Below are positions 5,239 to 64,000 of a stretch of DNA of 64,000 nucleotides, one piece after another; positions within the stretch are counted from its first letter, which is position 1; every line of letters begins with the position of its first letter. The stretch is from an uncultured Methanomassiliicoccales archaeon (GTDB taxonomy: Archaea; Thermoplasmatota; Thermoplasmata; Methanomassiliicoccales; Methanomethylophilaceae). A program made the position numbers and the translations under genes. The notes beneath the pieces are model-generated. The model was not told the DNA's origin, did not search any database, and saw only the letters and a program-made list of their open reading frames with translations. Location: contig CAZWKY010000002.1 in the NCBI GenBank assembly GCA_964634095.1, forward strand, positions 313 through 64,312, read 5' to 3'.

Positions 5239-6336
5239 TACGGGATAGAATCCCGCGTATCCCCAGAACGTCTTCTTGTCCAGGGAATCATTGCCTGTGG
5301 CCAGATATCCCACAGGGAGCTGTCCGCGGATCGTCTCGACCGAACGGTACAGGGAATCTCCGTACACGGGCTTGCCCCCTATGTCGAATCCGATGATGCC
5401 GTATGCATAGGAGAGCTTGTAGTATGAGTAGTCCACAAGGACCCTCTCCTGGAAATCGTCTATGACGACACCTGCGAAGACATGTCCCGAATGACCTCCC
5501 ATGGCTGCATCATAGCCTGCCACAAGGTACAGGGCGCACAACAGGGCGGATGTGTCCTCACAGTCCCCTATTCCGTGATAGAGGGTCTCCAGAGGAACAC
5601 ACCAATACTCATCGGAACCCCATACATAGTAATCGAAACTCTGCTTCGATACACTGGAAGGATACTTTACCCCCAACTGGACGAAGCATGCCATGAAATC
5701 GGCGAATCCCTGTCTGTCCCCAGGATCCCCTCCGATGCGGAGGAACTCCTTCTCCAGAGAGGATTCCAATGAACGGATCACATCGTCCACCACGACCAGA
5801 CGGGGGAGCTGTTCGAACGGCATGTATGTGTGGACTGCGAGGGTCTCCCTGTTCCAGACCCTGTTGAGATCGCATGCTTCCATGAACTCCTCCATGGGGA
5901 TGGAGACGGTCACGGAGACGGATTCGGTAACATTGCCCATCCTGTACTTCCAGGAGAATGTGCGTTCCACATCACCGGCCACACGTACCTCGAACTCCTC
6001 ATCCCCGACGGTGATGACGTAACCTCCCGGAGCCAACTCCACACTGTCGGAAACGAAATCCTCCCCATGGTACTCCGTGTAACGGTCCTCCATGAAGGTG
6101 TGGTACATATCGAAGACATGCCACGACACCACACCGGTCGCCGACAGGATGTTCTTCCTCTGGTCGAAGGAGAAGCCCTCGGGGATCTGGTTGTCGAAAG
6201 GATACTCGGGCAGCACGGGATCGTCAGGGTCATCGGGGACGTCGGGACCCTCCGATGCCCATGGGCCCAACAGGGCCGCCAGGATGACCAAAATCAGGGC
6301 CAACGCCGAAGCATACATCACAGGACGGGGATTCAT
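5230..6336 (-). CDS. Membrane-anchored transglutaminase-like (papain-fold) protein
   Basis: N-terminal TM/signal segment; YWCVPLETL, GDCED, GHVFAGV (Cys-His core). Confidence 0.7.
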   Translation of the reverse strand: MNPRPVMYASALALILVILAALLGPWASEGPDVPDDPDDPVLPEYPFDNQIPEGFSFDQRKNILSATGVVSWHVFDMYHTFMEDRYTEYHGEDFVSDSVELAPGGYVITVGDEEFEVRVAGDVERTFSWKYRMGNVTESVSVTVSIPMEEFMEACDLNRVWNRETLAVHTYMPFEQLPRLVVVDDVIRSLESSLEKEFLRIGGDPGDRQGFADFMACFVQLGVKYPSSVSKQSFDYYVWGSDEYWCVPLETLYHGIGDCEDTSALLCALYLVAGYDAAMGGHSGHVFAGVVIDDFQERVLVDYSYYKLSYAYGIIGFDIGGKPVYGDSLYRSVETIRGQLPVGYLATGNDSLDKKTFWGYAGFYPVSG

Positions 6337-41893: not shown

Positions 41894-42211
41894 ATGTCCA
41901 GTGAAAAGGGACGTCTGGAACAGGTTGTGGGGATGCTGTCCCCGCTCGGGGAGATCACATGGAAGCAGATGATGGGGGAGTATCTCCTGTATCTGGACGG
42001 ATTCGGGTTCGGGGGCATCTACGACGACAGGCTGATGCTCAAGGTCACGCCGTCCGTGGACAGGATGCTTCCCGATGCACCCCGCGAACCCCCGTATCCC
42101 GGAGCGGGGGAGATGGCCGTGGCGGACGATGTACCCACGGATGTCCTGATGGAGGTCCTGCCGCAGATGTGCTTCGAACTGCCGAGGAAGAAGGCGTGCA
42201 GACCGTTCTGA
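41894..42211 (+). CDS. TfoX/Sxy N-terminal domain protein
   Basis: Motifs KQMMGEYLLY.DG..FGGIYDDRL and PPYPGA. Confidence 0.85.
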   Translation: MSSEKGRLEQVVGMLSPLGEITWKQMMGEYLLYLDGFGFGGIYDDRLMLKVTPSVDRMLPDAPREPPYPGAGEMAVADDVPTDVLMEVLPQMCFELPRKKACRPF

Positions 42212-42224
42212 CCGAGGAGATGAC

Positions 42225-42316
42225 CTTGAAAGTTATGGAAAAATTTTCTTACAAGTTCTGGAAAAATATGCTTGAAAGTTATGGAAAAATTTCCTTGCAA
42301 ATTATGGAAAATATTT
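42225..42316 (+). repeat. 4 x 23-bp tandem direct repeat, consensus CTTGAAAGTTATGGAAAAATWTY
   Basis: Units at 42225, 42248, 42271 and 42294; AT-rich; ends 13 bp before the ATPase ATG. Confidence 0.9.
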
Positions 42317-42329
42317 AAACAAATAAATA

Positions 42330-43679
42330 ATGGATAACTCCGTGTCATACGACCTCGAACACTACAGAAAACGTCTGGCGGAGAAGGACCTGGAGCGCGC
42401 CCTGCGTTCCTTCGGAGCCGTGTGCATCGTCGGACCCAAATACTGCGGAAAGACCTGGATGGGACTCCACGGGTCCGGAAGCCACTTCATCATGGGCGAC
42501 GAGAACGCATACGGCGTCAGCAACAAGGAGCTCGCCCGGTCCGATATCCGTATAGCCATGGAGGGAAAAAGGCCCCATCTCATAGATGAATGGCAGGAGG
42601 CCCCCAGGATCTGGGATGCCGTGAGGTCGGACATAGACCGCCACGGGGAGAAGGGCGCATACATCCTCACGGGATCCGCGACACCGAAGGTCGGACCGGA
42701 TGACAGACCGGTCCACAGCGGCACCGGCCGTATAGTCCGCGTCCACATGCACACCATGTCACTCTACGAGTCGGGGGACTCGACAGGTTCCGTCTCCCTG
42801 AAATCATTGATGGCGTCCGAACCTATGGGGCCGATCGACGAGGGCACGGACCTGGACCACCTTGTGGACCTCGTGATCTCCGGAGGATGGCCTGGGAACC
42901 TCGACCTGGACCTGGAGGACCGTGCCTTCGCGGTCAGAGGTTACCTGGAGTCGGTCATCAAGGATGCGTGCCATCTCGACAATGTACGCAGGAAGGAATC
43001 CTCGTTCTGGCTGGTGGTCAGATCACTGGCGAGGAACGAGAGCACACTTGCATCCATGTCGAAGGTCCATAAGGACACGGGCATACCATTGGAGAGGGAC
43101 GTCCCCCTGATCCTGGACGGCATGGAATCCGATACCGAGCCGGGATTGTCATATGATACGGTCACAGACTACGTGGATGTACTGAACAGACTGCATCTGT
43201 TGGAGGATCAGCCTGCATTCGACCCCAATCTGAGGTCCAGTGTCAGAGTCGGGAAGGTCCCCAAGAGGCATTTCACCGACCCGTCACTGGCAGTTGCCGC
43301 CCTGAGAGTGGGGAGGGAGAGGCTGATGAACGACCCGAACACGTTCGATTTCCTCTTCGAAGCCATGTGCGAGAGGGATCTGAGGATCTATGCGCAGAGC
43401 ATCGGCGCCAACCTGTTCCATTACCGCGATTCGTCCGGGATGGAGGTGGACGCCATAGTGGAACTGGAGAACGGCGCATGGGGTGCGTTCGAGATAAAAC
43501 TGGGTGCCAACAGGATAGACGAAGGGGCGGAGAACCTGTTGAGGTTCAGGAAATCACTGATAAGACGTGGTGCGGCGAGACTCCCCTCCGTCCTCTGCGT
43601 CATATGCGGTCTGACACAGTATGCGTACCGCCGCGAGGACGGAGTCTATGTCGTCCCCATAACATCCCTGGGACCCTGA
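42330..43679 (+). CDS. ATP-binding protein (AAA_14 + DUF4143)
   Basis: Motifs GPKYCGKT, LIDEWQ, ILTGS, KRHFTDPS, HYRD..EVD..FEIK. Confidence 0.92.
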   Translation: MDNSVSYDLEHYRKRLAEKDLERALRSFGAVCIVGPKYCGKTWMGLHGSGSHFIMGDENAYGVSNKELARSDIRIAMEGKRPHLIDEWQEAPRIWDAVRSDIDRHGEKGAYILTGSATPKVGPDDRPVHSGTGRIVRVHMHTMSLYESGDSTGSVSLKSLMASEPMGPIDEGTDLDHLVDLVISGGWPGNLDLDLEDRAFAVRGYLESVIKDACHLDNVRRKESSFWLVVRSLARNESTLASMSKVHKDTGIPLERDVPLILDGMESDTEPGLSYDTVTDYVDVLNRLHLLEDQPAFDPNLRSSVRVGKVPKRHFTDPSLAVAALRVGRERLMNDPNTFDFLFEAMCERDLRIYAQSIGANLFHYRDSSGMEVDAIVELENGAWGAFEIKLGANRIDEGAENLLRFRKSLIRRGAARLPSVLCVICGLTQYAYRREDGVYVVPITSLGP

Positions 43680-46001: not shown

Positions 46002-46253
46002 TGATTCCCGCCCATCACCGTGAATGGACGGTGATATCCCCTGCAACGGACCCCGTTTCTACGGACATCGGCACTGTGTCCGGGACATCACCGTCTCTGT
46101 CTGAGACAAGCCGGAAAACGGCCATAACGGCAATCACACACCAGAAACAGCCGTCGGACATACCTTAGGTAAACGGCGTTACCACGAAAAACCCGCGGAA
46201 TGTTCAATCGCTCTCAAATACTGAGAATGTGGATTAGACTGTTAGGGAAAGAG

Positions 46254-47186
46254 ATGGCATTCAAGCTCTTCAAGAACGGAGATGACCTGTACACCCAGGG
46301 AGACGAGCTGATCAAACGGGGGGAGTACGCCAAAGCGCGCGACATCCTCCAGAAATCGATAGACAAGGAAGGTGGCATCGACGATGTGGCCGCGGTCAAG
46401 GTCGCACTCATCGACCTCTCATCGCACCTCACGCATCCGGGGGCCTACAGGAACCTCAGGTCCAAACTGAAGGAGGTCTCCCAGAAGGACCTGGAGTTCG
46501 GACTCACATCCTTCGACCGTGACGAACTCATCACGGAATGCGAACTCACGGAGGAGAAGCTGGAGATCATCGGCGATGTGGAGGACGACAGCGAGAAGGC
46601 GGATGCCGCCGAGGCACTGCAGAACCTCGCACTGAGGTACCAGTCCGAGATCGGCGACAGGCACCTGATCGTCCTGGAGATCTTCAAGAACGACACCACC
46701 GTCACCGGTATGACCGAGTTCTACAACCTCATGGCCGTGTCCTACGAATACAAGTCGGACGCCGTCGTATGGGACAACCCCTCCCAGGCGGCGGAATACC
46801 AGCAGATCGCCATGGGATACAGGCAGCAGAACGGACAGTCCGGTGAATCCAACCTGGCCAAGATCAGGTCCTACTCCTGCACGAGCAAATGCTGGCTCTG
46901 CGGAAGGGTCGCCACAGGGGAGGGGATACACTTCTTCAGCGCACCCGCGGACGTGTCCCCCGCCCTGGACAAGGGCGACACCGGGATCGCCAGATCCAAG
47001 CCCGAGGGCGACCACCAGATCTACATCTGCCGCGCCTGCTACTCCGCGGTCTCCAACCGTTCGGACGAGATCGCCCAGAGGTACTACGACAGGGCCATGG
47101 CGGAGATGGCGGAGATGGAGGCCAGGATCCAGGCGGAGATCGCCGCGCTTCAGACACAGATATCCTTCGCAAGGATGAACAGATAA
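46254..47186 (+). CDS. Helical (TPR-like) protein with C-terminal Zn finger and coiled coil
   Basis: Helical repeats, CWLCG...ICRAC, heptad-rich C-terminus. Start trimmed to MAFKLF. Confidence 0.7.
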   Translation: MAFKLFKNGDDLYTQGDELIKRGEYAKARDILQKSIDKEGGIDDVAAVKVALIDLSSHLTHPGAYRNLRSKLKEVSQKDLEFGLTSFDRDELITECELTEEKLEIIGDVEDDSEKADAAEALQNLALRYQSEIGDRHLIVLEIFKNDTTVTGMTEFYNLMAVSYEYKSDAVVWDNPSQAAEYQQIAMGYRQQNGQSGESNLAKIRSYSCTSKCWLCGRVATGEGIHFFSAPADVSPALDKGDTGIARSKPEGDHQIYICRACYSAVSNRSDEIAQRYYDRAMAEMAEMEARIQAEIAALQTQISFARMNR

Positions 47187-47187
47187 A

Positions 47188-48732
47188 ATGGACCAACTGG
47201 TAGAGCTCAGATGCAAATACTGCGGGGCCCCGCTGGACAGGAAGGATGTGGAGTCCGATTCGCCGTACGTGACCTGTCAGTGCTGCGGGACCAGCCAGCA
47301 GAGGGTCGATGCCAAGGCGTACATGGAGCAGATGATGGGCCAGATCCAGTCATGGATCAGCAAGGCCATCCCCGGGGGCTTCTCCCTGTCGCAGCAGGAG
47401 AACGTGGACCCCATCGCCAGGCACAACATCTACATCAACAACGTCAAGCCGTCCATCGAACTGGAGATCAGGGACTTCCGTTTCGCCCTAAACTCCGTGA
47501 TATCGTCACCGTTGGTGGTCCTGCCGTTCACCAAGGGCAGCCCCGTGAAATCCAAACACTCGTCATCCAGCGTGTTCGAGTTCAATGCCAAGCTGAAGAG
47601 CATCGAACCGCTGGCGGTGGACACCGGTGACAGGGCCTCGATCAAGGAGGCGGAGGACATGTCCATGGCCTACGCACTCATAGTGAACAACTCCCAGCTC
47701 CTGACGGACACCACGCCCGGACGTTTCGCCCTGATGTCCAAGAACTTCAGGGAATCGGCGGAGGCCATCGGGAAGTGCAAGGGGTACGAACCCCTGGTCG
47801 GAAGGCTGAACGCCCTCTCCGAGGTGTGCACAGCATCGGACATGGTGCTCAACGGGGACCACCTGGGATGCGTCACCAAGGCGGAGACCGCCATAGACAT
47901 GCTCCAGAAGGCCAAGGGGGAGATCCTGAGGAACCCCAAGCTGGCCATGATGATCCGTGCCGTTGACCTGGAGATCGGGCAGTCCAAGGCGCTGAAGAAC
48001 GTGGCGGAGATGTCCGTCAGCGGTACGAACGGTGATGCCCTGGGCACACTGGAGGTCATGAACAAGCTCGGAAGCCTGAGCTACCCCTCCGAACAGTCCT
48101 GGAACCCGCTCCTCCGCAAGAAGGACCGCAACTACGAGCTGTTCAGCTATGTGGAGGGGATCGTCACCGCACGCAGCGAGGGCACCCTCCCGATCTGCCC
48201 CGGGGACGGGGACATACTGTACCCGTTCTGGGATGTGGACCTGAAGTACAACTTCACAACGGGGTCGTTATTCTCCAAGAAGGTCGTGGAGGTGACCGAG
48301 GACATCCTCATACCCGCCACGTTCACGCTCAGTGCGGAGGCCCTGAGGAATCCGCGCAGGGGACTGACCGACATATTCTCCGTGGTCCCCGAGAGCTCGA
48401 TATTCGAGAGGATGAAGGGCGAACAGGACAGCATCAGCGGTGGCGAGGGCATAGGCAGGCTCGCGGACTCCGCATCCGAGAACCGCCCCGGCACCAGGGC
48501 GGTCGTCCTGCCACTGTCCACCAAGACGGAGGCGACCAGACTCGTCGAGGAGTACCTCAGACAGAGCTGCTCCACCAACTCCAAACTGAAACTCAGCAAG
48601 CCGTACGTCAAGAGGCTCATCTACATCCCCTGCCGCACAGGGGTGAACGGCATCTCGCTTCCGAGTGCCTTCGACAGGCTCACGCCTGCGATCCTCTCCG
48701 ACCCGGCCCTTGACAGCATCATAAAGATATGA
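47188..48732 (+). CDS. Zinc-ribbon-containing hypothetical protein
   Basis: N-terminal CKYCGAPL..CQCCGT; 514 aa; starts 1 bp after the upstream stop. Confidence 0.75.
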   Translation: MDQLVELRCKYCGAPLDRKDVESDSPYVTCQCCGTSQQRVDAKAYMEQMMGQIQSWISKAIPGGFSLSQQENVDPIARHNIYINNVKPSIELEIRDFRFALNSVISSPLVVLPFTKGSPVKSKHSSSSVFEFNAKLKSIEPLAVDTGDRASIKEAEDMSMAYALIVNNSQLLTDTTPGRFALMSKNFRESAEAIGKCKGYEPLVGRLNALSEVCTASDMVLNGDHLGCVTKAETAIDMLQKAKGEILRNPKLAMMIRAVDLEIGQSKALKNVAEMSVSGTNGDALGTLEVMNKLGSLSYPSEQSWNPLLRKKDRNYELFSYVEGIVTARSEGTLPICPGDGDILYPFWDVDLKYNFTTGSLFSKKVVEVTEDILIPATFTLSAEALRNPRRGLTDIFSVVPESSIFERMKGEQDSISGGEGIGRLADSASENRPGTRAVVLPLSTKTEATRLVEEYLRQSCSTNSKLKLSKPYVKRLIYIPCRTGVNGISLPSAFDRLTPAILSDPALDSIIKI

Positions 48733-48743
48733 GGGATGGAAAA

Positions 48744-49115
48744 ATGACTGAAGAAGGGAAAGGGATGTCATCCAGGACCTGGAGCGCCATCGCCGCGGGA
48801 GTGTTCCTGCTGGCGGTCGCACTGGGCATCCTGATATACATGGAGACGGGGGACGCGTTCGACGCCCTCTGGACCATTCTCATCGTGTTCGGACTGTACA
48901 TCGGACTGTCGTCCGTCTTCAAGGACAGGGGCAACGACAACTTCGGACCCTCCGAGGCCGACGTGAGCCTCGTGGGCGGTGTCATACTGGCGGGGATCGG
49001 TGTGTCCGGACTCGTCTACAGCTTCACAGACGAGGTGCTCTACACCGTCGTGACGCTCATCGTCATCGTCGCGGTGGCGGGAATCGTGATGGCCATCAAG
49101 AACAGGAACGTGTGA
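48744..49115 (+). CDS. Small 4-TM membrane protein
   Basis: Four hydrophobic segments; operonic spacing. Confidence 0.75.
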   Translation: MTEEGKGMSSRTWSAIAAGVFLLAVALGILIYMETGDAFDALWTILIVFGLYIGLSSVFKDRGNDNFGPSEADVSLVGGVILAGIGVSGLVYSFTDEVLYTVVTLIVIVAVAGIVMAIKNRNV

Positions 49116-49117
49116 TC

Positions 49118-49651
49118 ATGGGATTGGACAACACTGTCAAAGACAAGATGAAGGGGGACATGTCCCTCACCGAGAGGATCGCACTCTACATCCCCGGATA
49201 CAGGGGATACAGGGAGAAGAACCTCCGCCGCGAGCAGGACAGGGCCGTGAGGAACGAGCTGTCCCGTGCGATACAGGGAACGAAATCGGACCTGGCCGAG
49301 ATCCAGAGGGAGCTCGTGACCAAACCCAAGCTGATGCTCGATGTCGAGAGGATCAGGACCAAGGTCGACAGGTACGATGTGGACATCAGAAAGGCCGTGA
49401 ACGGGTACTCCGGGTTCCACGACACCGTGAAGATCCTCGAGGACGACCTGGACAGACTCTGCGCATGGGATGCACAGATGCTCGAGGACATCCAGCTCAT
49501 GAGGACGGCCACAGAGGACCTCCTGAGGAGCGTGGACAACGAGGATGAGGTCAAGGCCGAGATCCGCAACCTGGAGAGGGGCGTGGACGACCTGATCGAG
49601 ATCTATCAGAAGAGGGAGTCCGTGATGAAGGGCTTCGAGACCAAGGAGTGA
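49118..49651 (+). CDS. Conserved alpha-helical/coiled-coil protein
   Basis: IPGYRGYREK..RE.DRAVR and NGYSGF motifs; amphipathic helices throughout. Confidence 0.75.
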   Translation: MGLDNTVKDKMKGDMSLTERIALYIPGYRGYREKNLRREQDRAVRNELSRAIQGTKSDLAEIQRELVTKPKLMLDVERIRTKVDRYDVDIRKAVNGYSGFHDTVKILEDDLDRLCAWDAQMLEDIQLMRTATEDLLRSVDNEDEVKAEIRNLERGVDDLIEIYQKRESVMKGFETKE

Positions 49652-49657
49652 TGAAGG

Positions 49658-50761
49658 ATGGGCAAAACCAATGTGGTCTCCTGGGACTCCCAGGGGCCCG
49701 ATGACATTATCTACGCATACGAACACGACGACCTCAGGACCCTCACGTCCGTGACGGTCCCCGAGCATGCCGTGGCGATCTTCACCAGGGACGGACAGCT
49801 CACCGGCGTCCTGGAGCCCGGAAGGCACATGATCACCAGCAGCAACATCCCCTGGCTGACCAAGCTGTACAACCTCGCCATGGGGTTCAAGGAGACACCC
49901 TTCAAGGTGCAGATCATCTTCGTGTCCCTGAAGATCTTCAACGGGAGATGGGGCATCCGCGGGATGGTCAAGGCCGCCAAGGGATACGAGGTCCCCATCA
50001 CCCTGATGGCCAACGGTGACTTCCAGTTCAGGGTCTCCGACGTGCCTGTGTTCTTCACCCAGGTGCTCGGAGGGATCAGATCCTACACCACCGGCGATGT
50101 GAACTCGTTCATGAAGGCATTCATCAACGAGCAGATCACCCAGCAGCTCTCCCAGCAGTACTACATGGAGATGCTCAACAACCTGGAGGTGGCATCCACA
50201 TCCACCAAGGTGCTGATCGAGCAGTACTTCGCCCAGAGGGGTATCGAGCTCCTCTCCCTGAAGATCGCCGAGGCCAGGACCACCGAGGAGGACCAGAAGA
50301 AGGTGTTCGAGTACCTCCAGTTCAGCAGTGCCAACGGAGAGGCGTTCAAGAGGTACGAGGTCATGGACAGGATGGCGGACGCCATCGGCAACTCCGAGGG
50401 AGGTGCGGCCATGGGTACGGGCATGCTCCTGTTCCCACAGATGTACCAACAGCTCCAGCAGCAGCCCCTGATGGGCGTACAGGGACAGCAGCAGGCGCAG
50501 CAGCAGCCGAAGGTCCTCTGCCCCTACTGCGGCGGACCCAACGACTATCCCTACAAGTTCTGCGGGAACTGCGGAAAGCCCTCGCCCCAGATGCAGGCGC
50601 AGCAGCCCCCGGCACCCCAGCCTGCCCCCGCACCGCAACCCGCCGCATCCGGCGCAGGTGCGGGCATGAGGTTCAACAACTGCCCCTACTGCGGACAGGA
50701 CATCAGCGGTCTCCCCAAGACCCCCAAGTTCTGCCCCTACTGTGCGGAACAGCTGTTCTGA
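49658..50761 (+). CDS. SPFH/Band-7 domain protein with double zinc ribbon
   Basis: V.VPEHAVAIF.RDG..LEPGRH SPFH start; Q/P-rich linker; CPYCG..CGNCG and CPYCG..CPYC. Confidence 0.85.
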   Translation: MGKTNVVSWDSQGPDDIIYAYEHDDLRTLTSVTVPEHAVAIFTRDGQLTGVLEPGRHMITSSNIPWLTKLYNLAMGFKETPFKVQIIFVSLKIFNGRWGIRGMVKAAKGYEVPITLMANGDFQFRVSDVPVFFTQVLGGIRSYTTGDVNSFMKAFINEQITQQLSQQYYMEMLNNLEVASTSTKVLIEQYFAQRGIELLSLKIAEARTTEEDQKKVFEYLQFSSANGEAFKRYEVMDRMADAIGNSEGGAAMGTGMLLFPQMYQQLQQQPLMGVQGQQQAQQQPKVLCPYCGGPNDYPYKFCGNCGKPSPQMQAQQPPAPQPAPAPQPAASGAGAGMRFNNCPYCGQDISGLPKTPKFCPYCAEQLF

Positions 50762-63119: not shown

Positions 63120-64000
63120 CTACTGGACAACGGGGATGTCCGTACTCGGCCTGTGTCTCCTCATGAACACCTCATCGGGGTCCACCCATCCTGTGGACTC
63201 CAATGCCGCACGGACATAGTCCTTCACCCGCCACATCATGTACAGAGGAATGTGTGTGACACGTCCTATCGAGGTCTCAGGGTCCATCGAGGCCTTCACC
63301 GCCACCCTGGGATCGTATTTCTCGCGATACACCTTCAAACTCTTTGAGGACTTGGCCTGACCAGCTTTGACTTCGATTGGAACAGGCTCATAAAACATGG
63401 GAACGAGGAAATCCACCTCTGCCTCTCCACCTGAACGCCAATAGAACCGATCATTACCGAGATGTGTGTTCAACTCCTGGAAGACAATACTTTCAGCCAT
63501 GGCCCCTTTGAAATCCTTATAGTAAGAAGGATCAGAATTGAGAAAATCTGAAGGAACACCTGATCTTAGGGAGAACAGACCTACGTCGGTCATGTACAAC
63601 TTATAGAACGTCTTGGCATACATCGCCAAAGGGATCGATGGTTTCTCCACCTGAACCACCTTCCCTACCATGCCTGCATTCTTCAACCATTGAACCGCGG
63701 ACTCCAGATCCGCTGCCCTGGCCCCCTTTACAGACTGTCCGAAGATGAAACGGCTATTGTCCTTCGTCAACTGCATGGGAATGCTCTCCCACACAGACTC
63801 CAAAGACCCCTTGTAATCTACAGGATGCTTCGCCAAATCATCATGGTATGTGTCCAATATCCAACTCTGGATAGCCCTCACATCGGGAAGACTATGGGTC
63901 TCAATCCATGCGGACACCGCGGCCGGCATCCCTCCAACGACCTGATACTCCCTCAGACGGTCCTCCAACATGGGGATCATGAAACGGGGAATCTGCTCAT
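63120..64000 (-). CDS. ATP-binding protein (AAA_14 + DUF4143), 5'-partial
   Basis: The frame stays open to the window edge; motifs YQVVGGMP, KLYMTDVGL, GAMAE, YWR..EVDFL..PIEVK. Confidence 0.9.
   Translation of the reverse strand, partial: EQIPRFMIPMLEDRLREYQVVGGMPAAVSAWIETHSLPDVRAIQSWILDTYHDDLAKHPVDYKGSLESVWESIPMQLTKDNSRFIFGQSVKGARAADLESAVQWLKNAGMVGKVVQVEKPSIPLAMYAKTFYKLYMTDVGLFSLRSGVPSDFLNSDPSYYKDFKGAMAESIVFQELNTHLGNDRFYWRSGGEAEVDFLVPMFYEPVPIEVKAGQAKSSKSLKVYREKYDPRVAVKASMDPETSIGRVTHIPLYMMWRVKDYVRAALESTGWVDPDEVFMRRHRPSTDIPVVQ

What the first reader, a model, noticed from the sequence alone, without database searches (positions are those of the whole stretch)
42225..43679. Iteron-like 4 x 23-bp array attached to an AAA_14/DUF4143 ATPase
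Seen: four head-to-tail 23-bp units (CTTGAAAGTTATGGAAAAATTTT / CTTACAAGTTCTGGAAAAATATG / CTTGAAAGTTATGGAAAAATTTC / CTTGCAAATTATGGAAAATATTT) form an abrupt AT-rich island that ends 13 bp before the ATPase ATG. Units 1 and 3 are near-identical, suggesting duplication of a two-unit block. There are no spacers, so this is not CRISPR. Known: AAA_14+DUF4143 proteins combine an ATPase, winged helix and a restriction-endonuclease-like C-terminus, are abundant in gut microbes, and have no established function. Inference: a period of about two helical turns fits a cooperative binding or loading array for the protein itself. The repeat plus gene (inserted with TfoX between ths and glnA) could be a small self-regulated selfish or defence module.
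Basis: partly seen in the sequence, partly recalled or inferred. Interest (0 to 1): 0.75.

Follow-up and report, generated by a model that had tools for sequence, protein, structure and literature searches.

The report
Private repeat array guarding an ATPase-nuclease gene
The four 23-bp repeats are real and belong to a previously undescribed, conserved feature: across archaea and bacteria most examined genes of this very common but uncharacterised ATPase-nuclease family (a candidate anti-virus gene) carry their own array of repeats at a fixed spacing against their promoter, most likely the docking site of the protein itself.

Summary
There are four head-to-tail 23-bp units at 42225-42316, in an AT-rich island directly upstream of an AAA_14/DUF4143 gene (PADLOC candidate PDC-S01). 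Of 84 upstream regions of homologues (42-76% identity, archaea and bacteria), 61 have their best self-similarity at a lag of exactly 23 bp, against 1 of 407 control windows. More distant homologues (24-39%) in isolate plasmids also show it. The unit sequence differs between loci and between paralogues in one genome, yet it is conserved far above synonymous sites (0.91 against 0.35 for the 76% orthologue). It has a fixed polarity and abuts the TATA box or the -35. No neighbouring gene is conserved. The second paralogue, cut at 64000, belongs to a subfamily with arrays of period 32-33 bp. The protein model resembles Orc1/Cdc6 and STAND ATPases plus an intact PD-(D/E)XK nuclease. The best reading is a private, iteron-like binding array for the gene's own product, giving promoter-occluding autoregulation and possibly templated assembly. 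Binding has not been tested. TfoX is not part of the module. I found no description in the searched literature.

The parts
42225..42316 (+). Array of four head-to-tail 23-bp units (unit starts 42225, 42248, 42271, 42294). The A-rich strand is the coding strand of the downstream gene.
   Evidence: Homologous arrays of the same period lie upstream of homologues.
42306..42321 (+). Putative archaeal core promoter: a purine-rich BRE-like GGAAAATA followed by a TATA-like TTTAAACA (42314-42321). The TATA box starts inside the last 3 bp of unit 4, where the next unit would begin.
   Evidence: Sequence reading. The same arrangement (array abutting TTTAAA, then about 19-22 nt to the start codon) is seen in archaeal homologues. 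This is inferred; no transcript data exist.
42330..43679 (+). AAA_14/DUF4143 ATPase-nuclease gene (449 aa as an ORF; probable true start GTG 42342). Domains from the model: AAA+ about residues 18-150 (nt 42381-42779), helical lid about 175-251, winged-helix-like helix 275-287 plus beta wing 290-315 (nt 43152-43274), PD-(D/E)XK about residues 318-445 (nt 43281-43664).
   Evidence: Pfam. PADLOC PDC-S01 1.6e-51. AlphaFold2 pLDDT 90.4, pTM 0.91. Foldseek. Walker A/B and E372/D374/E388 invariant, K390 88%.
41894..42211 (+). Upstream TfoX_N-domain ORF (105 aa). It is a neighbour, not a conserved partner of the module.
   Evidence: Pfam 1.5e-8. It is retained in the 76% relative L002 but absent from the other loci.
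63120..64000 (-). C-terminal 292 codons of a second, distant AAA_14/DUF4143 paralogue (full length 471 aa, P0121). Its own upstream array, of period 33 bp and about 2.5 units, lies beyond the window end.

Best explanation
The 4 x 23-bp array is a private, iteron-like binding array for the product of the adjacent gene. That product is an Orc1/Cdc6- or STAND-like AAA+ ATPase with a winged-helix region and a C-terminal PD-(D/E)XK nuclease. One protomer (or one dimer) is proposed to occupy each 23-bp unit, head to tail. Neighbouring protomers would touch through their AAA+ domains, so the protein-protein spacing fixes the period while the bases read by the DNA-binding surface are free to drift together with the protein. 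The last unit abuts or overlaps the core promoter (BRE/TATA in archaea, -35 and spacer in bacteria). Occupancy should therefore control the gene's own transcription, most simply by repression. The array may also serve as the platform on which the ATPase-nuclease is stored or assembled. Shown here: the array, its family-wide conservation, the fixed period, the polarity, the promoter register, selection on the sequence, and private units per paralogue. Inferred: that the binder is the encoded protein, that binding is cooperative, and that the outcome is autoregulation.
For: (1) Association: TRF finds an array within 260 bp upstream of the start in 64 of 80 homologue loci, with period 23 in 60 of them. 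By autocorrelation, 61 of 84 upstream regions peak at exactly lag 23, and 15 of the 22 weaker ones also peak at 23. Only 1 of 407 control windows does so. Extra paralogues inside L015 and L019 carry their own arrays. Isolate plasmids at 24-39% identity (Bacteroides ovatus, B. uniformis, Collinsella, Prosthecochloris, Actinomyces oris, Lentilactobacillus hilgardii, Sulfitobacter) also peak at lag 23.
(2) A second subfamily, which includes the window-end paralogue, has arrays of period 32-33. 56 of 78 loci peak there, against 0 of 238 controls.
(3) Selection: in 171 orthologue pairs the mean identity at four-fold sites is 0.36 against 0.65 for unit consensus. Window against L002 gives 0.35 against 0.91, and L031 against L059 gives 0.35 against 1.00. 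Unit-by-unit positional orthology is kept between the window and L002.
(4) Specificity: unit similarity falls to the random level below about 55% protein identity. Paralogues within one genome differ at 9-14 of 23 positions, which is the null level.
(5) The gene is the only conserved partner. No neighbour family occurs in more than 9 of 80 loci.
(6) Polarity and core: GAAA is on the coding strand in 53 of 77 units, against 12 for TTTC and 17 in shuffles.
(7) Promoter register: TATA begins where the next unit would begin. In 21 of 25 bacterial loci the -35 lies inside the last unit or abuts the array.
(8) The units occur nowhere else in the window or in the roughly 13-kb loci.
(9) Fold: the top Foldseek hit is Orc1/Cdc6 bound to origin DNA (2qby_B), followed by Paby2304 and STAND NLRs. 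ATPase and nuclease motifs are conserved.
(10) Covariation between repeat and protein distance is concentrated in residues 256-320 and 346-380, not in the AAA+ domain.
Against: There is no binding, footprint, transcript-start or expression datum for any member, and no usable RNA run was found. The covariation signal is weak (partial rho up to 0.35) and the pairs are not phylogenetically independent. Part of the signal lies in the nuclease domain, so which surface reads the DNA is open. In STAND proteins the winged-helix domain usually does not bind DNA. Some family members lack a detectable array (Thioclava, Rhizobium, Brucella, L010, L101, L052). Others have a palindrome instead (L049/L060). 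Repression rather than activation is inferred from position only. Several 'bacterial' metagenome bins that hold archaeal-looking loci may be mis-binned, although isolate genomes confirm that bacterial cases exist.
Confidence: 0.6

Rival explanations
1. The array is mainly a working part of the protein's function rather than a regulator. It would be a DNA template on which the AAA+ nuclease oligomerises, so that it is parked inactive or switched on there. One example is a self-anchored sensor that is released or activated on infection; another is a nuclease whose specificity is defined by these long sites. Autoregulation would then be secondary. This overlaps with the best explanation.
For: The period is fixed within a subfamily (23 or 32-33 bp, about one helical turn apart), which suggests a constraint from oligomer geometry. 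ATPase and nuclease catalytic residues are conserved. The fold is STAND- or ORC-like, and these are families that assemble on a ligand or on DNA. Covariation also appears in the nuclease domain. The family is listed as defence candidate PDC-S01.
Against: Two to three units are the commonest number, which is few for a ring or filament. The tight register with the core promoter is most simply regulatory. No defence phenotype has been shown for PDC-S01.
Confidence: 0.2
2. The array is the cis site of a small selfish element. It could be a replication origin (true iterons or ORB-like boxes), a recombination, transposition or homing site, or a centromere-like site used by the ATPase-nuclease to propagate the gene.
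For: It has the look of an iteron array: plasmid iterons are 17-22 bp direct repeats with about 22-bp spacing (own knowledge). Archaeal Orc1/Cdc6 genes sit next to their ORB repeats (own knowledge), and Orc1/Cdc6 is the top fold match. The family is multi-copy, patchy and sits in varied contexts. It also occurs on plasmids (187 records). The copy number of units changes between relatives.
Against: No second or inverted copy of the unit lies downstream of the gene or elsewhere within about 6 kb, so there are no element ends. No replication, transposase or integrase gene is conserved nearby. Here the neighbours are chromosomal housekeeping genes (thermosome, glutamine synthetase). Several paralogues per chromosome would mean several extra origins. 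The array faces the promoter in a fixed register. No empty site was found.
Confidence: 0.1
3. The array is promoter architecture read by host machinery, not by the encoded protein. It could be phased A-tracts giving curved, UP-element-like DNA, or reiterated BRE/TATA-like or -35-like boxes that raise or buffer transcription.
For: The units are A-rich on the coding strand with a recurring TGAAA(A)T core. Unit junctions in the window resemble BRE plus TATA (GGAAAAATTT). Some bacterial units contain TTGACA-like hexamers. The array abuts the promoter.
Against: Curvature or generic boxes would not require whole-unit conservation at saturated synonymous divergence. They would not require private units per paralogue, or GC-rich palindromic units such as CCGATGAAATCATCGG. 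They would not be tied to one gene family in two domains of life with different transcription machineries. Two discrete periods that track protein subfamily also argue for a family-encoded reader.
Confidence: 0.06
4. The array has no function: it is replication-slippage debris, an assembly artefact, a spacer-less CRISPR-like array, or a structured RNA.
For: Tandem repeats can arise by slippage. Unit number differs between relatives (4 against 5 units; +2 or +3 units).
Against: The same period recurs in most of more than 160 independent loci, including complete isolate replicons. The sequence is under purifying selection. The length is stable in four other strains. There are no spacers, no Rfam match, and no folding signal on either strand (z +0.30 and -0.94).
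Confidence: 0.02

Closest known systems
Iterons and Rep initiators of theta-replicating plasmids (e.g. pPS10, R6K, RK2, F, P1). Comparison from own knowledge.
   Same: Both have tandem direct repeats of about 17-22 bp with a period of about two helical turns and a handful of copies. The repeats sit next to the gene of a winged-helix protein that binds them, and the unit sequence is private to each replicon. Rep proteins also autoregulate their own promoter.
   Different: The protein here is an AAA+ ATPase fused to a PD-(D/E)XK nuclease, not a Rep_3/RepA-type double winged-helix initiator. The locus is chromosomal and sits among housekeeping genes. There are no replicon genes, DnaA boxes or a demonstrated unwinding element. 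Several paralogues occur per genome. The array is in register with the gene's own core promoter.
Archaeal Orc1/Cdc6 with origin recognition boxes (ORB) beside its own gene
   Same: This is the best structural match to the N-terminal two thirds of the protein (2qby_B, Orc1/Cdc6 on origin DNA). It also has the AAA+, lid and winged-helix architecture, and repeated recognition boxes next to the gene (own knowledge).
   Different: There is no sequence-level membership: the Pfam hits are AAA_14 and DUF4143. The repeats here are strictly head-to-tail and abutting, not inverted boxes around an unwinding element. The protein carries an extra nuclease domain. There is no evidence of origin function.
PADLOC candidate defence system PDC-S01 (AAA_14 + DUF4143 single-gene candidate)
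   Same: Both paralogues of this window are members by HMM (1.6e-51 and 1.4e-148). The family is reported as the fourth most common defence (candidate) system across prokaryotes, is enriched in Archaea, and consists of an ATPase fused to a PD-(D/E)XK domain (PMC12988326).
   Different: The published descriptions I could search treat it as a protein only. None mentions an upstream repeat array. Its defence activity is unvalidated.
STAND-type regulator MalT and bacterial enhancer-binding AAA+ proteins that assemble on arrays of upstream sites; ParR/parC-type arrays that serve as both operator and functional site. Comparison from own knowledge.
   Same: In these systems an ATP-dependent oligomerising NTPase binds several repeated sites upstream of a promoter, or an array upstream of an operon doubles as operator and working site.
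   Different: The DNA-binding domains differ (LuxR-type or Fis-type HTH, or ribbon-helix-helix). These systems regulate other genes or partition plasmids. They have no nuclease domain and no strict 23- or 33-bp lattice.

Membership tests
AAA_14/DUF4143 (COG1373; PADLOC PDC-S01) | N-terminal AAA_14 ATPase domain and C-terminal DUF4143 domain above the Pfam gathering scores | tested here: met
   AAA_14 scores 38.7 bits (cut-off 27) and DUF4143 scores 86 bits (cut-off 28.1).
AAA_14/DUF4143 (COG1373; PADLOC PDC-S01) | Match to a PDC-S01 profile | tested here: met
   PDLC04790 at 1.6e-51 for the 42330 gene. PDLC04786 at 1.4e-148 for the window-end paralogue.
AAA_14/DUF4143 (COG1373; PADLOC PDC-S01) | Intact Walker A/B and PD-(D/E)XK catalytic residues | tested here: met
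   G35, P36, G40, K41, T42 and E87 are invariant and D86 is present in 55 of 56 sequences. E372, D374 and E388 are invariant, and K390 is present in 49 of 56 sequences.
AAA_14/DUF4143 (COG1373; PADLOC PDC-S01) | Protection against phage or other invading DNA | not testable with these tools
   The literature states that validation is pending (PMC12988326).
Plasmid iteron/Rep replication origins | Tandem direct repeats of about 17-22 bp at a period of about 22 bp | tested here: met
   4 x 23 bp.
Plasmid iteron/Rep replication origins | Adjacent initiator of a Rep (double winged-helix) family | tested here: not met
   Pfam finds only AAA_14 and DUF4143. NCBIfam finds nothing.
Plasmid iteron/Rep replication origins | Location in an autonomous replicon with origin features and replicon genes | tested here: not met
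   The flanking genes are thermosome, GrpE, DnaK and glutamine synthetase III. No conserved mobile or replication neighbour occurs across 80 loci.
Archaeal Orc1/Cdc6-ORB origins | Orc1/Cdc6 protein family membership by sequence | tested here: not met
   There is no Cdc6/Orc Pfam hit. The similarity is structural only (2qby_B, E 7e-6, TM 0.23-0.26).
Archaeal Orc1/Cdc6-ORB origins | Recognition boxes flanking an AT-rich unwinding element, with replication initiation | not testable with these tools
   Only abutting direct repeats followed by the promoter are seen. No replication data exist.
CRISPR array | Repeats separated by unique spacers of similar length | tested here: not met
   The units abut with no spacers.
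Known structured RNA families (Rfam 15) | Match at or near a family's gathering score | tested here: not met
   The best matches are at E 5.6-5.9, far below gathering scores. There is no folding signal.

The most novel reading that the evidence does not exclude
AAA_14/DUF4143 (PDC-S01) proteins would be a large class of DNA-templated AAA+ nucleases. Each would be 'addressed' by a private iteron-like lattice (23 bp in one subfamily, 32-33 bp in another) that sits on its own promoter. The lattice would nucleate an ORC- or STAND-like oligomer that both sets expression and gates the nuclease. This would be a self-contained gene-plus-cis-site module that senses or attacks invading DNA, or spreads selfishly, by a mechanism not seen in known defence systems.
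Probability: 0.2. Interest if true: 0.9.

Novelty: new variant of a known kind. Interest (0 to 1): 0.8.

Why it matters
PDC-S01 (AAA_14/DUF4143) is reported as the fourth most common defence (candidate) system in prokaryotes, with about 10,000 archaeal and 29,000 bacterial instances. It has no validated activity and no known mechanism (PMC12988326). This analysis shows that most examined members carry a conserved, selected, private repeat lattice fused to the promoter. That gives the family its first candidate ligand, and it makes the function directly testable by binding, footprinting, reporter, structural and nuclease assays using a DNA sequence that can be read off each genome. The finding also has a practical use for annotation. 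The arrays mark the true promoter and start codon; here GTG 42342 is more likely than ATG 42330. They should not be mistaken for CRISPR-like or slippage repeats. The two discrete periods, about one helical turn apart, are a concrete structural prediction for how an ORC- or STAND-like ATPase can line up on DNA.

Tried and rejected
- Structured RNA or riboregulator: rejected. There is no Rfam match and no folding signal on either strand. The array lies upstream of the predicted core promoter.
- CRISPR: rejected, because there are no spacers.
- Transposon-like ends: rejected. No further or inverted copy of the unit was found within the loci.
- Conserved partner gene, including TfoX: none found.
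- Strain-level instability of the window array: none seen in four metagenome strains. Whole-unit gains were seen in relatives of another locus.
- Transcript mapping failed. Only DNA metagenomes hold the window sequence. The 'RNA' runs holding L025 gave long contigs that look like DNA. Runs could not be searched for isolate plasmid loci.
- Solved structures by sequence: none.
- NCBIfam: no hit.
- Residue-level covariation gave only weak, broad signals, and I did not push it further.
- Common register of units across all loci: rotating units to a reference was unreliable for diverged units. Anchoring on TATA showed the conserved GAAA core shifts by a few bp between clades.
- Empty-site comparison: no informative relative. 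L002 has gltB between the ATPase gene and glnA. The L083-85 contigs break inside the 5' end of the gene.
- Literature searches for DUF4143, COG1373, PDC-S01, Pfam accessions and repeat-related phrases found nothing on the arrays. The AAA_14 term matched unrelated text.
Full report
**1. What is in the window**

Four abutting 23-bp units occupy 42225-42316. Tandem Repeats Finder reports period 23, 4.0 copies, 80% matches and score 121. This is the highest-scoring tandem array in the 64 kb; the next best scores 51. The unit pattern with up to 3 mismatches occurs only at these four places, against 0 expected in shuffles. Units 1 and 3 share 22/23 bases. The flanking 23-mers share only 3-8/23 with any unit.

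GC drops to 26-35% in the array, against 58% for the window. The array fills most of the 118-bp gap between the stop of a TfoX_N ORF (41894-42211) and the ORF 42330-43679. That ORF has Pfam AAA_14 and DUF4143 domains and matches the PADLOC candidate PDC-S01 at 1.6e-51. The surrounding genes are housekeeping genes: DnaK, GrpE and thermosome on one side, and type III glutamine synthetase on the other. Names of homologues place the organism in the Methanomethylophilaceae (Methanomassiliicoccales).

**2.

A scan of one genome per species returned 80 loci that encode homologues of 42-76% identity. They come from Methanomassiliicoccales and from many bacterial lineages. Printing the 160 bases before each start codon shows tandem repeats in nearly all of them.

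- TRF finds an array within 260 bp upstream in 64 of 80 loci, with period 23 in 60 and 22 in 4.
- An independent autocorrelation test on 84 upstream regions gives a best lag of exactly 23 in 61 regions and 22 in 1. Fifteen of the 22 weaker regions also peak at 23.
- Of 407 random 260-bp windows from the same loci, 6 reach the score threshold and only 1 of them is at lag 23.
- Second paralogues that happen to lie inside L015 and L019 have their own arrays directly upstream (8.1 and 4.7 units). A third, in L021, has only a weak one (about 2.3 units, below the score threshold).
- More distant homologues on annotated plasmids of cultured bacteria also peak at lag 23. These are B. ovatus 39%, Collinsella 38%, B. 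uniformis 36%, Prosthecochloris 32%, Actinomyces oris 29%, L. hilgardii 25% and Sulfitobacter 24%.
- Thioclava, Rhizobium and Brucella members do not.
- Unit number ranges from about 2 to 8, with a median of 3.

**3. A second period in a second subfamily**

The paralogue cut by the window end is on the minus strand, so its promoter lies outside the window. I recovered its full-length form (P0121, 471 aa) and a contig that carries it. This protein is too distant from the 42330 gene to align beyond short motifs.

Its upstream region holds about 2.5 units of a 33-bp repeat. Relatives at 42-66% identity have 32- or 33-bp arrays, and so does a member inside L065. In 80 metagenome loci of this subfamily, 33 of 78 have a best lag of 32 or 33 above the threshold, and 23 of the 42 weaker ones also peak there. 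None of 238 control windows does.

So the upstream array is a property of the wider family. Its period is set by subfamily, and the two periods differ by about one helical turn. That last point is my own reading of the numbers.

**4. The array is under selection and is private to each gene**

For 171 orthologue pairs, the mean identity at four-fold degenerate sites is 0.36 (saturated), against 0.65 for the unit consensus. The random expectation for my rotation-optimised measure is about 0.48.

| Pair | Four-fold site identity | Unit consensus identity |
|---|---|---|
| Window and 76% orthologue L002 | 0.35 | 0.91 |
| L031 and L059 | 0.35 | 1.00 |
| L017 and L018 | 0.34 | 1.00 |

Individual units of the window and of L002 keep positional correspondence (20-21/23), and L002 has one extra unit. 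Unit similarity decays with protein divergence and reaches the random level below about 55% identity. Paralogues in one genome differ at 9-14 of 23 positions, which is the null level.

Four other metagenome strains of the window organism have the same four units with a single substitution. Relatives of locus L025 differ by +46 or +69 bp, that is by whole units. Slippage therefore changes unit number over time, but the sequence and the period are held.

**5. Anatomy relative to the gene**

- *Polarity.* The arrays have a fixed polarity. GAAA occurs on the coding strand in 53 of 77 unit consensuses, against 12 for its complement and 17 in shuffles. The recurring core is TGAAA(A)T.
- *Dyad symmetry.* A subset of units contains a strong internal dyad, with arms of 7 or more in 13% against 1.1% of shuffles. 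Most units do not.
- *Archaeal promoters.* In archaeal loci the TATA-like box (TTTAAA...) begins exactly where the next unit would start, and the start codon follows about 19-22 nt after the box. This fits leaderless transcripts. By that rule, and by alignment with L002, the window gene probably starts at GTG 42342.
- *Bacterial promoters.* In 25 bacterial loci with a recognisable sigma-70-type promoter, the -35 lies inside the last unit in 12 and abuts the array in 9.
- *Other copies.* The units occur nowhere else in the window or in the loci, and no inverted copy lies downstream.
- *Neighbours.* No neighbouring gene family is shared by more than 9 of 80 loci. TfoX recurs only in the closest relative.

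**6. The protein**

An AlphaFold2 model built from 56 sequences is confident (pLDDT 90.4, pTM 0.91). It shows an AAA+ core, a helical lid, a helix followed by a beta wing (275-315), and a C-terminal alpha/beta domain. The best Foldseek matches in the PDB are Orc1/Cdc6 bound to origin DNA (2qby_B), the archaeal ATPase Paby2304, plant NLRs and other STAND proteins, then generic AAA+ proteins. There is no relative with a solved structure by sequence.

Walker A and B and the nuclease residues E372, D374 and E388 are conserved in all or all but one of the 56 sequences. K390 is present in 88%.

Exploratory partial correlations put the repeat-linked protein variation at residues 256-320 and 346-380, not in the AAA+ domain. 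The signal is weak and the pairs are not independent.

**7. Interpretation**

A fixed period with free sequence is what a protein-protein spacing constraint produces. Private units per paralogue are what a set of non-cross-reacting DNA binders produces. The register with TATA or the -35 points to control of the gene's own promoter.

I therefore favour a private iteron-like operator and assembly array (confidence 0.6 for the whole statement). My confidence is much higher that the array is a selected, family-specific cis element. It is lower for repression as the outcome.

The rivals are:
- a primarily mechanistic assembly or activation platform, which overlaps with the best explanation;
- an origin, mobility or centromere site;
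- host-read promoter architecture;
- no function at all.

The evidence for and against each is listed in the rival explanations.

**8. Comparison with what is known**

The array works like plasmid iterons, ORB boxes, or MalT- and enhancer-binding-protein sites. It is not a member of those systems. The Rep and Orc1/Cdc6 membership features were tested and not met. It is a member of AAA_14/DUF4143, that is PDC-S01.

The literature I could search describes that family only as an unvalidated but very common defence candidate made of an ATPase fused to a PD-(D/E)XK domain. Nothing I found mentions the repeats. That search covers open-access papers and bioRxiv only.

**9. Verdict**

The feature is real and non-random. 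Biochemical proof is missing. I rate it a new variant of a known kind (cognate repeat arrays for a DNA-binding protein), attached to a major uncharacterised family. Interest is 0.8.

Noticed in passing
window 63120-64000 (minus strand); L098 880-1062: A second, very distant AAA_14/DUF4143 paralogue is cut by the window end. Its full-length form (P0121) carries about 2.5 units of a 33-bp repeat (GTCCTTGCCAAAATGC...) upstream. Its whole subfamily favours 32-33-bp arrays.
   Followed up: yes
L083, L084, L085 positions 1-140: The 86%-identical orthologue in a related lineage lacks the array, the promoter and the first few codons. Homology to the window starts at 42351, after 30 unrelated bases. 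Three contigs from three samples all break at the same base, which suggests an insertion of repeated DNA (an IS?) that disrupted the 5' end of the gene.
   Followed up: partly
L025 5824-5915 and 7266-7272 (runs X20, X21, X23): Wastewater relatives of this Agathobacter-bin locus carry 2 or 3 extra 23-bp units (joints that go back 46 or 69 bp). One contig has 4,091 extra bases inserted a few bases after the stop of the ATPase gene.
   Followed up: partly
window 46200-50761 (plus strand): A five-gene same-strand cluster lies next to glnA. Four of the products (328, 514, 128 and 179 aa) have no significant Pfam or PADLOC match. The fifth (49658-50761) is an SPFH/Band_7 protein with C-terminal double zinc ribbons.
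   Followed up: no
L002 1565-6034 (minus strand): In the 76% relative, a glutamate synthase large-subunit gene (1489 aa) lies between the ATPase gene and glnA. It is absent at this position in the window, so the two lineages differ by a gltB-sized segment.
   Followed up: partly
L054 1983-2875 and L055 1983-2900: Two Verrucomicrobia-bin loci also have a type III glutamine synthetase gene directly downstream of their DUF4143 gene (55-56% identical to the window's glnA). This may be coincidence or a transferred block.
   Followed up: no
L049 about 5490-5560 and L060 about 5495-5560 (minus-strand upstream regions): Distant paralogues (about 29% identity) have a roughly 41-bp palindrome (TTTACGGAGATTT...AAATCTCCGTAAA) at the start of the gene instead of direct repeats. 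Other PDC-S01 subfamilies may therefore use a different operator layout.
   Followed up: no
L013, L014, L015, L032, L038, L041, L046, L066 (bins named Lachnospiraceae, Dialister, Eggerthellaceae, Bacteroidaceae): These 'bacterial' bins hold loci with archaeal-style TATA boxes and proteins that are 45-59% identical to the archaeal protein of the window. The contigs may be mis-binned archaeal DNA, so domain counts from MAG labels should be read with care.
   Followed up: no
window 42573-42604 and 43654-43679 (runs X2, X5, X6, X7): A second long contig of similar depth in each sample matches only these two short conserved stretches of the gene. This points to at least one more paralogue of the same subfamily in the same genome.
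   Followed up: no
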